Source: a virus
Taxonomy: Duplodnaviria; Heunggongvirae; Uroviricota; Caudoviricetes
Strand: one strand, 5' to 3'
IMG/VR virus record: IMGVR_UViG_2740892106_000001
Length of the DNA: 42,783 nucleotides
This document shows, one piece after another, positions 32,201 to 35,200 of this stretch. Position 1 is the first letter of the stretch. Each line of letters starts with the position of its first letter. The position numbers were made by a program.

Positions 32201-35200
32201 ATAGAAGAATTATTGGATTAAACCCTGACTCAATCCAGATTTCATAGGCAACAACTACGGACTAATCATCACAGTCATGTTTGATAGGCTTAGTCCACAT
32301 TGGGTGAGGGTTTACGGCGTTTTCACTAATAATTTATCGTCCAAGCTATACACTACTGCCCTGTTTTAACGAAGTTTTTAAAGGAAACAACTGCCTGATA
32401 GGGGTTTGGTTGACAGCCAAACATATTATCGCAAAAAGGCTTGATGAAAATTCTTGAGGATCCATCTTCATTTGGCATTTTACTCACTTGATAAGCGAGG
32501 AATGGACTATTTGGAGAGGGATTATAAGTGGAAATTAGCGTGTCTGTCGCCGTTTGAATTTTCCATGAGGAATTATTAGCCAACCAGAATTGCGCTCGTT
32601 TCCAATAAAAGTCACATTGCTTTTCATCATTACATGTTAGTGGCTTCATTGCTTCTGCTTTCAACGCTGGATCGACCTTTGCTGCACACCCTCCCAACAT
32701 TACTGTTGCAATCATTACACCTGCGACTAAAACAAGTTTCTTCATCTCCCTGCCCCATCAATAAAAGTTCGGTTCTCTAATAACTAGAGTTAATCAACGG
32801 AAAAAACGCCGAAGCGGGTTAAGTGCGGGTGCGTTGAGGATGCCTGACACATCAGAGGTGGCGAGGGATTTCTCCCCCGCCAGGTCTCTTACTCCTCAGG
32901 TTCGTAAGCTGTGAAGACAGCGACCTCCGTCTGGCCGGTTCGGATTCGTACCTCGCAGAGGTCTTTCCTCGTTACCAGTGCCGTCACAATGACGGTTAAA
33001 CAGATGACGATCAGGGCGATTAACATCGCCTTTTGCTGCTTCATAGCCTGCTTCTCCTTGCCTTTCGGCACGTAAGAGGCTAACCTAGATTTGCCGTTCA
33101 TAGATTGAGCCTCAGATTAATGTTAAGCGTCTTGCAGGACGCGTAATGTTAACTGGGGCTTTTCTCTATCTGCCTTTGGTGTTCATGCCTGAGACAGATA
33201 GCCTCAAGCACCCGCAGCCATTCTACTTAACTCCCGTTACCTCGCCAATATGAAATCAGTCAGAAAGGCGATCCATAAGAACAACAGCAAGGCAATAAAT
33301 TGCCATTACAGCAGCAATAGCCAGCGCACATTTGAGAACCAGCACCACAACCTCCTGTATTGGACGTACATCAGTCCTGATAAATATGAGGCTGTCTCGT
33401 CAGTGATTCAATACAACTATTGGGTATAGTTTCTGTGATTTTGTTCTGTAGAAATGGAACACAATAACCAGTCACCACCAGCACTTCTTTAAATACGCCA
33501 AGTCCGACGCAAGCTAACCTTCTAGCCCACTTTGAGCGAGAAGCAGACATTTACTTAACTGGATAGCAAGAGACTTCATATATCATGGTTGATCCCGGAG
33601 TTTTCAATAATGGAAAGACATTGCCCGTATGATCGGGCCGTAACCACATTAGAAGCAGGTGCCCTTTGTGAATTTTGATTGTGTCAACCTATCTGTTTTG
33701 AATTTTTTATAAAAAATATTCGCAAATTTGTGAATTATGAGAGACAAACGAGCATGGACAACCAATGTTACTTTCATACACAATGAAGCAACATGATAAA
33801 AGTACACTGACTTTAGCAAGTAAATTTAGGAGATTGCGATGTTTAGCTTAATCATGGCCGGAGAACCGGACGTTTTTGACCGCTGGCCGTGTATGGACCC
33901 AGGGCTTACAGAAGGCGAGGAAAGATTCTCGATGTCCCGCATGCTGGAAGGCACCCCAAGCGATATTTACAGTAAATTAACACCAATAAGACCCGATACC
34001 TTAAGAGAACTCGCCAAGCTACCAGTATTGTTCATGACCGAAACTTATACAAAAGATGATGAATATGATACAAACAAGTACATCAGGATCAGACTTGGGG
34101 AAATAAGAAATTTACGTAAAGATGGTGGCGATATTTTATTTTCTTTCAAGATTAATCATAATTTTGGAGAAATAACGAATCCCCAAACGACATTATATAA
34201 AGAAACCCTAGGGCTAGGATCTTTCGGGTTAAGCCGTACACATTGGGCAGTAAAAAATAAGGATTTAAATATTGTTCTGGAATCACTTGGTTTAAACAAA
34301 CAAAATAGTCACCTCAAAGGTACAATCAAATTAAAAAAACAAACATACCCAGTAGTCGAGAATATTATAGATTATCTTAATTTCATAAAGAAAAACTTTC
34401 GTGATGGTCTCATTACCTTTTATCGTGGACACTCTAAAAGCTCATATGAGCTTGTCCCCTCTCTTTACAGAAAAAATCAAAACGGGACGTACAGGCATCT
34501 TGCTTCAGAATCTGATTTAGTACGTGAAATACTCAGCGCAAGACCAAATGAATTTAAGGAGGATAAATTTACGATTGATAAACTTGTCCGCATGCAGCAT
34601 TATGGCTTGCCTACAAGACTCTTAGACATTACATCTAACCCACTGATAGCATTATATTTTGCTTGCTGTTCGAACCCCAATGAAAACGGACAGGTGATTT
34701 CGTTTTCAACAAATAGAAAGAAAATTAAATATTTCGACTCAGATACAGTGAGCTGTATAGCAAACTTATCACTTTTATCTTACGAAGAGTTGGAAAAATT
34801 GTCCTCCTCTGATTCCAGAAAAGGTAATATGGAGTTATCTGAACTCACTGATAAACTTGCAGACCTTATACAGAATGAAAAATCATATTTTAGAAACAGA
34901 ATAATTCCTGATGACTTAAGGAAAGTTGTTTTCCTTAAGGCTAAAATAAATAATGAACGCATACAATCTCAGGCAGGAGCTTTTCTTCTGTTCGGACTTG
35001 ATCCCATTTTACCGGAAACAGATGCTGAGTTTCCTCTTAACAGAGTGGAGATAGCGAACAAAAATAAAATTCTGGAAGGGCTGGCGCAGCTTAATATATC
35101 CGAAAGCACTGTATATCCCAGCATGGAGAAAACGGCAGCAGAAATTAAAAAAAAGTTTTTATCGGTATCATAAAGGGATAAACTAAAGGCAACGAAAACT

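What the first reader, a model, noticed from the sequence alone, without database searches (positions are those of the whole stretch)
32796..33250. hok-type toxin locus with expected antisense control region
A 51-aa Hok/RelF-like toxin is encoded at 32889-33044 with a UUCG-loop hairpin and T-run downstream (32796-32815). The roughly 200 nt upstream leader (33045-33250) should carry the mok/sok regulatory elements, but I cannot delimit the antisense RNA by eye. Notably an in-frame upstream start extends the ORF, unlike the overlapping out-of-frame mok of plasmid systems. This is a type I toxin-antitoxin embedded in prophage accessory DNA.
Basis: partly seen in the sequence, partly recalled or inferred. 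Interest (0 to 1): 0.45.

Follow-up and report, generated by a model that had tools for sequence, protein, structure and literature searches.

The report
Intact prophage hokD/mok/sok toxin-antitoxin locus
This is an ordinary, apparently complete copy of the well-known hok/sok RNA-controlled toxin-antitoxin module in an E. coli lambdoid prophage; close relatives occur in most E. coli genomes, and a 93%-identical phage relative (hokW/sokW) has been tested experimentally.

Summary
A 51-aa Hok toxin is encoded at 33044..32889 on the minus strand, and it is identical to E. coli K-12 HokD/RelF. Unlike K-12 hokD, which sits behind relBE and has no leader of its own, this copy keeps the whole hok control region. 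I could delimit these parts:
- a hok promoter at 33248-33220;
- the mRNA 5' end, about 33213;
- tac at 33213-33202 and ucb at 33161-33155;
- the mok Shine-Dalgarno sequence and start codon (ATG at 33101), and dcb at 33081-33076;
- fbi at 32839-32827;
- a plus-strand antisense Sok gene with promoter TTGCCT-17-TAACCT and a predicted 71-nt RNA at 33093-33163.

Minimum-energy folds reproduce the switch known from plasmid R1. The full-length mRNA pairs tac with fbi. The 3'-shortened mRNA pairs tac with ucb and the mok SD with dcb. Both sets of pairs are kept, some through compensatory changes, across 44 homologues.

The in-frame mok is not unusual. It is the arrangement annotated for K-12 mokC and 933W mokW, and it is found in 80 of 97 distinct relatives.

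The "UUCG hairpin" is a 3-bp remnant (-3.1 kcal/mol) of the family's 5-bp terminator (-11.4 kcal/mol).

The locus is 93% identical to hokW/sokW of phage 933W/Sp5, which has been validated experimentally. It is already known and of low interest.

The parts
33220..33248 (-). hok/mok mRNA promoter: -35 TTGGCG (33248-33243), 17-nt spacer, -10 TAGAAT (33225-33220)
   Evidence: It is the only sigma-70-like site found in 32600-33500, with 9 of 12 matches. The -10 aligns with TAGAAT/TATAAT in homologues. It lies 7 nt upstream of the tac 5' end. Promoter function is inferred.
32801..33213 (-). Predicted full-length hok mRNA, about 413 nt. The 5' end (33213, give or take 2 nt) is placed by homology to the start of the Rfam model and to the R1 +1. 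The 3' end lies at the T-run, if the weak terminator works.
   Evidence: The Rfam hit starts at 33213. The MFE fold is -164.3 kcal/mol and includes 5'-3' pairing. Both ends are inferred, not mapped.
33202..33213 (-). tac (translational activator element), GGGUGCUUGAGG
   Evidence: It pairs with fbi in the full-length fold and with ucb in the truncated fold. It is nearly invariant in 66 close relatives. Its pairing is conserved across homologues.
33155..33161 (-). ucb (upstream complementary box / anti-SD), AAGCCCC
   Evidence: In the full-length fold, 33160-33153 pairs with 33108-33115, which covers the mok SD. In the truncated fold, 33161-33155 pairs with tac 33206-33213. The tac-ucb helix is 96% paired in 44 sequences.
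33076..33113 (-). Sok-target hairpin of the truncated mRNA: mok SD GAGG (33113-33110), mok ATG (33101) and dcb AGCCUC (33081-33076). The predicted Sok 5' end falls in its loop (33097-33090).
   Evidence: Truncated-mRNA fold. It corresponds to the third hairpin of the Rfam model. The SD-dcb base pairs are kept in 41-43 of 44 sequences.
32889..33101 (-). mok reading frame, 70 codons, in frame with hok: 19 leader codons followed by hok
   Evidence: ORF list. Same layout as the annotated mokW and mokC. PHROG 251 'MokW-like host killing', E 7.7e-33.
32889..33044 (-). hok toxin gene, 51 aa plus stop. SD AGGAG lies at 33058-33054.
   Evidence: Pfam HOK_GEF, E 3e-23. Identical to K-12 HokD. Annotated hokD in RefSeq.
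33058..33086 (+). sok promoter: -35 TTGCCT (33058-33063), 17-nt spacer, -10 TAACCT (33081-33086)
   Evidence: From the -10 hexamer through the hok start (33086-33042) the sequence is identical to 933W/Sp5 hokW-sokW. There, mutating the -10 region unleashed toxicity (Takada 2021, PMC8621323). It is too weak a consensus match for the promoter scan to report.
33093..33163 (+). Predicted Sok antisense RNA, 71 nt: a 14-nt single-stranded 5' tail, then a long imperfect hairpin and a U-rich end
   Evidence: Coordinates are transferred from the annotated sokW of AF125520. The 5' end lies 8 nt inside mok, the same offset as K-12 sokC. The fold is -30 kcal/mol. Expression was not tested here.
32903..32906 (-). 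TACG motif at the Tyr47 codon: the TadA A-to-I editing site (Tyr to Cys) reported for K-12 hokD
   Evidence: The motif was located. TACGAA is invariant in 44 homologues. Editing of hokC, hokD and hokE is reported in PMC5630033. Editing at this copy is inferred.
32859..32882 (-). Conserved GC-rich 3'-UTR hairpin (UGGCGGGGGA-GAAA-UCCCUCGCCA), probably the stop point for 3' exonucleolytic processing
   Evidence: Present in the full-length fold. GGCGGGG...CCCCGCC is conserved in the alignment. Its role is inferred from the R1 model.
32827..32839 (-). fbi (fold-back inhibitory element), CCUCAACGCACCC, complementary to tac with one bulged C
   Evidence: 12 bp to tac in the MFE fold. The six pairs of its GGGUGC half (helix 1) are 94.7% paired, with a UA<->CG compensatory change in 12 sequences.
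32801..32818 (-). Remnant intrinsic terminator, CCCGC-UUCG-GCG plus T6. Only 3 bp can form, because the descending arm is cut by the junction with the downstream flank.
   Evidence: -3.1 kcal/mol against -11.4 for the K-12 hokD version. This variant occurs in 3 of the 83 fetched loci that keep fbi, always with the same downstream flank. It is not found by the terminator scan.

Best explanation
The locus is a complete hokD-type hok/mok/sok type I toxin-antitoxin cassette. It sits among accessory genes between the replication genes and the Q antiterminator of a Qin/Rac-like lambdoid prophage of E. coli.

Proposed mechanism, by homology with plasmid R1 hok/sok and with 933W/Sp5 hokW-sokW:
1. A constitutive promoter makes a stable mRNA of about 410 nt. 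Its 5' tac element pairs with the 3' fbi element. In this closed form ucb masks the mok ribosome-binding site, so neither translation nor Sok binding occurs.
2. Slow 3' trimming removes fbi.
3. tac then pairs with ucb, and the mok SD moves into a hairpin with dcb that presents the mok start region.
4. While the unstable 71-nt Sok RNA is being made, its 5' tail pairs with that hairpin, and the duplex is cut by RNase III.
5. If Sok disappears, ribosomes translate mok and, coupled to it, hok. The 51-aa peptide enters the inner membrane and depolarises the cell.

Shown here: the presence, integrity and placement of every sequence element; both alternative folds; and their conservation and covariation. 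Inferred: transcription, processing, RNase III cleavage, toxicity, and the biological role. The role most likely matches that shown for hokW-sokW, which speeds cell death and lysis after prophage induction. It may also stabilise the prophage or exclude other phages.
For: - Toxin: identical to HokD; Pfam HOK_GEF E 3e-23.
- Leader: Rfam RF01794 at 110 bits against a gathering score of 59.
- Similarity: 93% nucleotide identity over 417 nt to 933W and VT2-Sakai, where mokW, hokW and sokW are annotated. In Sp5, toxicity, antitoxin activity, RNase III and Hfq dependence, and both RNAs on Northern blots were shown (PMC8621323).
- Folds: the full-length MFE fold pairs 33213-33202 with 32827-32839 and masks the mok SD with ucb. 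Truncated mRNAs refold to tac-ucb and SD-dcb.
- Conservation across 44 homologues from Escherichia, Kluyvera, Photorhabdus, Erwinia and plasmids: 79.5% and 78.8% of cells are paired, against 34-49% when partners are slid by 1-3 columns. 0 of 500 shuffles reach the observed covariation score. One tac-fbi pair shows a UA<->CG exchange in 12 sequences.
- Sok: the 5' end offset (+8 from the mok A) agrees with two independent annotations, sokW and sokC.
- Distribution: 3926 of 5426 complete E. coli genomes hold a place covering at least 80% of the locus.
Against: - No expression data exist for this copy.
- The sok -10 (TAACCT) matches consensus at only 3 of 6 positions and is missed by the promoter scan.
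- The mRNA terminator stem is cut to 3 bp. Some transcripts may therefore run on into the downstream 130-aa gene. That would leave fbi internal and could change the 3'-processing clock.
- The first 10 nt of the predicted Sok differ from sokW at 6 positions, so sokW results do not transfer automatically to the recognition step.
- All but one of the hok loci of K-12 are reported inactive (Pedersen and Gerdes 1999, as cited in PMC5630033). Inactivity is therefore common in this family.
Confidence: 0.85

Rival explanations
1. The locus is a silent relic. The sequence looks complete, but the truncated terminator or the weak sok and hok promoters leave it inert, like most hok loci of E. coli K-12.
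For: The terminator hairpin is only 3 bp, at -3.1 kcal/mol against -11.4 in most relatives. Four of the five K-12 hok genes are reported inactive (PMC5630033). Decayed copies exist among the relatives: K-12 hokC is cut by IS186, K-12 hokD has lost its leader, and Shigella locus L051 is frameshifted.
Against: No element other than the terminator is damaged. tac, ucb, both SDs, both ORFs, dcb, fbi and the sok promoter match functional relatives. The same allele, at 99% identity or more, is kept in 159 records. The near-identical promoter and leader of hokW-sokW are active.
Confidence: 0.1
2. The real toxin is the 70-aa in-frame Mok-Hok protein. Ribosomes starting at the mok AUG read straight through hok, so no re-initiation at the hok AUG is needed.
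For: mok is in frame here and in 80 of 97 distinct relatives. Several phage records annotate only the 70-aa product as 'host killer protein'.
Against: 14 of 97 relatives have mok out of frame, some with a Hok identical to this one. In 9 the offset is 56 nt, giving a 19-codon upstream ORF that ends at the hok ATG. In 5 the offset is 58 nt, as in R1. The N-terminal extension therefore cannot be required. The 19 leader codons include the hypervariable patch. The 51-aa HokW alone is toxic. In R1, the act of translating mok matters, not its product (PMC9841398).
Confidence: 0.12
3. The module's main role is defence or exclusion, killing the host when another phage infects (abortive infection), as part of a prophage defence islet. 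On this view it does not mainly serve prophage maintenance or lysis timing.
For: The divergently transcribed neighbour is an FRG-domain protein that matches the PADLOC defence candidate PDC-S15 at E 1.7e-98. [quoted passage not shown]
Against: That same preprint found no enrichment of hok next to defence systems. The only direct experiment on a close relative shows a role in lysis after induction. Nothing in the sequence separates the possible roles.
Confidence: 0.2

Closest known systems
hokW-mokW-sokW of Stx2 phage 933W / Sakai prophage Sp5 (AF125520; Takada et al. 2021, PMC8621323)
   Same: It is 93% identical over 417 nt, from the hok -10 to fbi. The layout is the same: in-frame 70-aa mok, 51-aa hok, 71-nt antisense RNA. 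From the sok -10 hexamer through the hok start the sequence is identical. Hok is identical at 47 of 51 residues. It is also prophage-borne.
   Different: Six of the first 10 nt of Sok (mok codons 2-4) differ. There are four substitutions near the C-terminus of Hok. The position in the phage genome differs: here the locus lies between the replication genes and Q, whereas in 933W it lies near the right end beside a very large ORF. The flanking genes differ.
E. coli K-12 hokD (relF) in the Qin prophage
   Same: The protein is identical, with a single synonymous change in the coding sequence. The 3' UTR with fbi is the same. The position is equivalent, upstream of the rem/DUF968/Q genes of a dicB-dicF prophage.
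   Different: In K-12, homology stops just upstream of the hok SD, because relBE lies there. The promoter, tac, ucb, the mok start and sok are missing, and hokD is co-transcribed with relBE (PMC3598666). The window keeps the whole leader. K-12 has the full 5-bp terminator and the window does not.
E. coli K-12 hokC/mokC/sokC (gef)
   Same: mok is in frame with a 57-nt offset. The Sok 5' end is 8 nt inside mok. The tac, ucb and dcb sequences are the same.
   Different: Hok identity is about 82%. The Sok hairpin region is about 18 nt shorter. The K-12 copy has lost its 3' end and fbi to IS186.
hok/mok/sok (parB) of plasmid R1
   Same: It shares the same set of elements (tac, ucb, mok SD, dcb, fbi, antisense Sok over the mok start) and the same two-state mRNA architecture.
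   Different: HokW, the close relative of this Hok, is 44% identical to R1 Hok (PMC8621323). In R1, mok is out of frame (A116 vs A174, 58 nt). R1 is plasmid-borne, with post-segregational killing as its shown role.

Membership tests
[quoted passage not shown] | Toxin ORF of about 50 aa with an N-terminal transmembrane helix and a conserved Cys | tested here: met
   Pfam HOK_GEF, E 3e-23, covering profile positions 1-42 of 42. Identical to HokD.
[quoted passage not shown] | Leader ORF (mok) with its own SD, starting upstream of hok and overlapping it | tested here: met
   SD GAGG at 33113-33110 and ATG at 33101; 70 codons. Translational coupling itself cannot be tested here.
[quoted passage not shown] | cis-encoded antisense RNA gene opposite the mok translation-initiation region, with its own promoter and terminator hairpin | tested here: met
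   The promoter region is identical to that of the validated sokW. The predicted 71-nt RNA at 33093-33163 has a 5' tail and a -30 kcal/mol hairpin. The start offset matches sokW and sokC. These are sequence-level tests only.
[quoted passage not shown] | Long-range tac-fbi pairing between the 5' and 3' ends of the mRNA | tested here: met
   12 bp in the MFE fold of the full-length mRNA. The GGGUGC half of the helix is 94.7% paired, with a compensatory UA<->CG change.
[quoted passage not shown] | Alternative pairings: ucb with the mok SD (closed form), and tac with ucb plus SD with dcb (open form) | tested here: met
   Both are predicted. Conservation is 96% for tac-ucb, and 41-43 of 44 sequences keep the SD-dcb pairs. 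Rfam structure match at 110 bits.
[quoted passage not shown] | Expression of both RNAs, 3' processing, RNase III cleavage of the duplex, and toxicity of the peptide | not testable with these tools
   These are shown only for relatives: hokW-sokW (PMC8621323) and R1 (PMC9841398).
[quoted passage not shown] | Intrinsic terminator directly after fbi, which defines the 3' end of the mRNA | tested here: inconclusive
   Only a 3-bp UUCG hairpin plus T6 remains, at -3.1 kcal/mol against -11.4 in relatives. It is not found by the scan.
hokD orthologue group (NCBI name 'type I toxin-antitoxin system toxin HokD') | Protein identity with K-12 HokD, and a position in a dicB/dicF lambdoid prophage upstream of the DUF968, RusA and Q genes | tested here: met
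   51 of 51 residues identical. RefSeq annotation and gene order agree. DicF lies at 39567-39618. The NCBIfam Hok and HokA models score below their cut-offs (48.5 vs 73 bits), and no HokD model gave a hit.

The most novel reading that the evidence does not exclude
The 20-nt patch at 33109-33090 is by far the most variable part of an otherwise near-invariant leader. It covers the mok start, the loop of the Sok-target hairpin and the Sok 5' tail. It may act as a specificity 'barcode' that lets several hok/sok cassettes in one genome run without cross-talk; this window carries one of at least 18 variants. A second possibility is that the truncated terminator of this allele ties the hok mRNA to the downstream lipoprotein gene and so changes the fbi-removal clock. 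Neither idea is excluded and neither was tested.
Probability: 0.3. Interest if true: 0.35.

Novelty: already known. Interest (0 to 1): 0.12.

Why it matters
It matters little for discovery, because the cassette and its mechanism are textbook and a 93%-identical phage copy has been characterised. Its practical value is in annotation. RefSeq marks only the hokD CDS here, and the Rfam 'sok' hit lies on the mRNA strand. The coordinates given here supply the missing mok, Sok and mRNA elements. The locus also shows what the K-12 relBE-hokD locus lacks compared with a complete copy. Finally, it offers a natural allele with a shortened terminator and its own Sok 5' tail, which could be used to test hok/sok specificity and 3'-end control.

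Tried and rejected
- The promoter scan on the plus strand did not report the sok promoter, because its -10 matches only 3 of 6 positions. I placed the promoter by homology instead.
I therefore treat it as a remnant, not a working terminator.
- I first used an IncFII plasmid locus (L006) as 'R1'. Its Hok equals the R1 Hok sequence as I recalled it, but its mok is 57 nt upstream and in frame. It is therefore not R1 itself, and the R1 offset of 58 nt comes from the numbering in PMC9841398.
- NCBIfam gave only sub-threshold Hok and HokA hits.
I used tblastn against phage records instead.
- I looked by eye for a YUNR U-turn motif in the target loop. None is obvious in this variant, and I did not pursue it.
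- The two terminator-like hairpins at 33321-33291 are within chance expectation: 2 found, against 0.7 +/- 0.9 in shuffles.
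Full report
**1. What is in the sequence**

The minus strand carries a 70-aa ORF at 33101..32889. An internal ATG at 33044 gives a 51-aa peptide, MKQQKAMLIALIVICLTVIVTALVTRKDLCEVRIRTGQTEVAVFTAYEPEE. This peptide matches Pfam HOK_GEF over the whole profile, at E 3e-23. It is identical, residue for residue, to HokD/RelF of E. coli K-12.

A scan of the whole window against Rfam gave a strong hit to RF01794 ('sok') over 33213..33039, at 110 bits against a gathering score of 59 (E 2.7e-24). That hit lies on the minus strand. The model begins with GGGUGCUUGAGG and ends at the hok AUG. 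It therefore describes the hok mRNA leader, not the antisense RNA, and its strand must not be read as the strand of Sok.

**2. Where it comes from**

The 481-nt locus matches 4943 of 5426 complete E. coli genomes, and 3926 of them hold a place covering at least 80% of it. The median is 2 places per genome and the maximum is 10. RefSeq annotates only a CDS named hokD.

The best full-length match for the surrounding 12 kb is strain NR3838, at 98.3% identity. Its gene order is exonuclease, dicB, ydfC, a cI-like gene, cro, YdaT, replication genes, DUF977, an FRG protein on the opposite strand, hokD, a 130-aa hypothetical gene, DUF968, RusA, Q, and tRNAs. With DicF at 39567-39618 and four tRNAs at 29149-29455, the setting is a Qin/Rac-like lambdoid prophage. 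The hok locus lies among accessory genes between the replication genes and Q, on the same strand as the rightward early genes.

In phage records the locus is 93% identical over 417 nt to 933W, VT2-Sakai and other Stx phages. There mokW, hokW and a 71-nt sokW antisense RNA are annotated.

**3. Delimiting the control elements**

I aligned the window with 933W hokW, a Rac-type phage locus, K-12 hokC, K-12 hokD and an IncFII plasmid hok. This alignment and string searches place the following elements.

- **hok promoter:** TTGGCG-17-TAGAAT at 33248-33220. It is the only sigma-70-like site the scan finds in the region.
- **mRNA 5' end:** about 33213.
- **tac:** 33213-33202.
- **ucb:** AAGCCCC at 33161-33155.
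- **mok:** SD GAGG at 33113-33110 and ATG at 33101.
- **dcb:** AGCCUC at 33081-33076.
- **hok:** SD AGGAG at 33058-33054 and ATG at 33044.
- **3'-UTR hairpin:** a GC-rich hairpin at 32882-32859.
- **fbi:** CCUCAACGCACCC at 32839-32827.
- **sok promoter (plus strand):** TTGCCT (33058-33063), 17-nt spacer, TAACCT (33081-33086).

From the -10 hexamer through the hok start (33086-33042) the window is identical to Sp5/933W. In Sp5, changing the -10 region released HokW toxicity, and sokW supplied in trans partly restored growth (PMC8621323).

Transferring the sokW annotation puts the Sok 5' end at G33093. That is 8 nt inside mok, the same offset as the independently annotated sokC of K-12 (16952 vs mokC 16960). 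The 3' end falls at 33163. The predicted 71-nt RNA folds into a 14-nt free 5' tail followed by a long hairpin of -30 kcal/mol.

**4. Does the mRNA behave like a hok mRNA?**

The MFE fold of the predicted full-length mRNA (33213..32801, -164.3 kcal/mol) pairs tac with fbi over 12 bp with one bulged C. It also pairs ucb with the mok SD region.

I then removed the 3' end up to 32845, 32850 or 32860. Each shortened mRNA gave the alternative fold. In it, tac pairs with ucb (33213-33206 with 33155-33161). The mok SD pairs with dcb in a hairpin, and the loop of that hairpin (33097-33090) contains the complement of the Sok 5' end. This is the closed-to-open switch described for R1 (PMC9841398).

I tested conservation on an alignment of 44 homologues from Escherichia, Kluyvera, Photorhabdus, Pantoea, Erwinia and a plasmid.

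| Measure | Closed structure | Open structure |
|---|---|---|
| Cells forming a standard pair | 79.5% | 78.8% |
| Same, with partners slid 1-3 columns | 38-47% | 34-49% |
| Shuffles (of 500) reaching the observed covariation score | 0 | 0 |

The six pairs of the GGGUGC half of tac-fbi (helix 1) are 94.7% paired; the UUGAGG half is 76.5% paired. One helix-1 pair switches from U-A to C-G in 12 sequences. The tac-ucb helix is 96% paired.

Four rows in that alignment are known truncated loci: two follow relE, one is cut by IS186, and one lacks the 3' end. They lower these figures. The shuffle control overstates significance for related sequences, so the slid-partner control is the safer one, and it is clear.

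**5.

*(a) In-frame mok.* The offset of 57 nt is real, but it is the norm for this clade. mokC/hokC in K-12 and mokW/hokW in 933W are annotated the same way. Among 97 distinct leader-plus-hok sequences fetched from genomes and IMG/VR, the offsets were:

| Offset of mok ATG from hok ATG | Number of sequences | Consequence |
|---|---|---|
| 57 nt | 80 | mok in frame with hok |
| 56 nt | 9 | 19-codon upstream ORF whose stop overlaps the hok ATG |
| 58 nt | 5 | mok out of frame, as in R1 |
| no mok found | 3 | none |

. Loci with identical Hok use different frames. An IncFII plasmid whose Hok matches the R1 Hok sequence as I recalled it also has a 57-nt in-frame mok. The frame is therefore not conserved. 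This fits the published view that translating mok as far as the hok start matters, and the Mok product does not.

*(b) The UUCG hairpin.* Most relatives have CCCGC-UUCG-GCGGG followed by T4-6, whatever lies downstream. In the window the sequence is CCCGC-UUCG-GCG-TTTTTT. The descending arm is cut at the junction with a particular downstream flank, the one carrying the 130-aa gene. Only two other fetched loci share this. Stability falls from -11.4 to -3.1 kcal/mol. The hairpin is absent from a local MFE fold and from the terminator scan. Whether termination still works cannot be decided here. Read-through would leave fbi internal to a longer transcript.

**6. Relation to K-12 hokD**

In K-12, homology with the window begins just upstream of the hok SD. 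Everything further upstream is relE, and relF/hokD is co-transcribed with relBE (PMC3598666). The window therefore shows the complete form of the locus, of which K-12 retains only hok and the 3' UTR.

**7. Other features**

The Tyr47 codon lies in a TACG motif at 32906-32903. TACGAA is invariant in all 44 homologues. In K-12, TadA edits this position in hokC, hokD and hokE to give Cys (PMC5630033). Since the coding sequence differs by one synonymous change, the same editing is expected here.

Within the leader, variability among 66 distinct close relatives is concentrated at 33109-33090. Mean column entropy there is 0.64-0.84 bits, against 0-0.4 elsewhere in the leader. This patch covers the mok start, the target loop and the Sok 5' tail. 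At least 18 variants occur among loci whose Hok begins with the same seven codons as HokD, and the window's variant accounts for 7 of 92 loci. Copies that share one chromosome differ there. The comparison between leader and coding region is biased, because the loci were selected by Hok identity. The comparison within the leader is not biased. Diversification of Sok specificity is a reasonable reading, but it is untested.

**8. Mechanism and role**

The mechanism I propose is the R1 and hokW one. A stable, closed mRNA is slowly activated by 3' trimming. An unstable Sok RNA pairs with the mok start region and triggers RNase III cleavage. When Sok is lost, mok and hok are translated and the peptide damages the membrane.

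For the closest characterised relative, mitomycin C induction removed sokW RNA and HokW appeared about 1 h before the endolysin. Deleting the locus delayed growth arrest and halved phage release. That is the most likely role here.

Because hok lies on the same strand as the early rightward genes, transcription from upstream after induction could also interfere with the convergent sok promoter. This is my inference and has no support from data.

Prophage stabilisation and phage exclusion remain possible. The neighbouring FRG protein is a PADLOC defence candidate. However, a recent survey found no general association of hok with defence systems.

**9. Verdict**

The locus is a well-preserved member of a thoroughly studied system and is present in most E. 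coli genomes. It is already known, and its interest is low.

Noticed in passing
window 33256-33345 (- strand): There is a 29-aa hydrophobic ORF, (GTG)LVLKCALAIAAVMAIYCLAVVLMDRLSD, with an AGGAGG SD. It ends 8 nt before the hok -35. It stays open, with mostly synonymous or conservative changes, in 12 related loci whose flank is 83-98% identical over the aligned part. In four phage genomes it lies directly upstream of hok. It is unannotated in RefSeq and in three of those four phage records, and it has no Pfam, NCBIfam or PHROG match. It may be a real small membrane protein.
   Followed up: partly
window 33839-35173 (+ strand): A 444-aa FRG-domain protein (Pfam E 2.7e-22) is transcribed divergently from hok. 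It matches the PADLOC phage-defence candidate PDC-S15 at E 1.7e-98 and PHROG 4962, of unknown function.
   Followed up: partly
window 32353-32745 (- strand): A 130-aa ORF has a lipoprotein-like N-terminus (MKKLVLVAGVMIATVMLGGC). It matches PHROG 16082, of unknown function, and has a weak N-terminal resemblance to the Cor exclusion protein (E 0.007). It follows hok directly, and it is the flank associated with the truncated hok terminator, so it might be co-transcribed with hok.
   Followed up: partly
window 33039-33213: The Rfam RF01794 'sok antitoxin' model matches the hok mRNA sense strand, from tac to the hok AUG. An automatic annotation made from it would place 'sok' on the wrong strand, with the wrong extent.
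   Followed up: yes
window 33090-33109, and loci L007-L139: The mok start / Sok 5' tail patch is hypervariable: at least 18 variants occur among loci whose Hok begins with the same seven codons as HokD. Copies that share one chromosome (for example L008, L009 and L016 of CP178302.1) differ there.
   Followed up: partly
L006 (NZ_CP128973.1 IncFII plasmid), 343-559: A plasmid hok locus whose Hok matches the R1 Hok sequence as I recalled it has its mok ATG 57 nt upstream and in frame (71 aa). R1 itself is offset by 58 nt. The mok frame therefore varies even among R1-type plasmid loci. PLSDB annotates the hok CDS there as only 102 nt.
   Followed up: partly
window 39567-39618 (+), 4514-4712 (-), 29149-29455 (-): Other RNA features are present: DicF sRNA (76.7 bits), an IS009 RNA element (195.8 bits), and a cluster of four tRNA genes downstream of Q.
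   Followed up: no
L021 (Acinetobacter idrijaensis, 275-bp contig) and L026 (Xanthomonas pisi, 431-bp contig): HokD-type sequences (96% and 100% identical over the parts present) sit on very short contigs of non-enterobacterial assemblies. The likeliest cause is E. coli contamination of those assemblies.
   Followed up: no
L051 (Shigella flexneri CP182557.1), about 1001-1150: A hokC-type copy has a scrambled internal segment (MKQHKAMIVAPDRHLYHRRSGGAGGRKDL...), which suggests compensating frameshifts. It is an example of a decayed hok gene.
   Followed up: no
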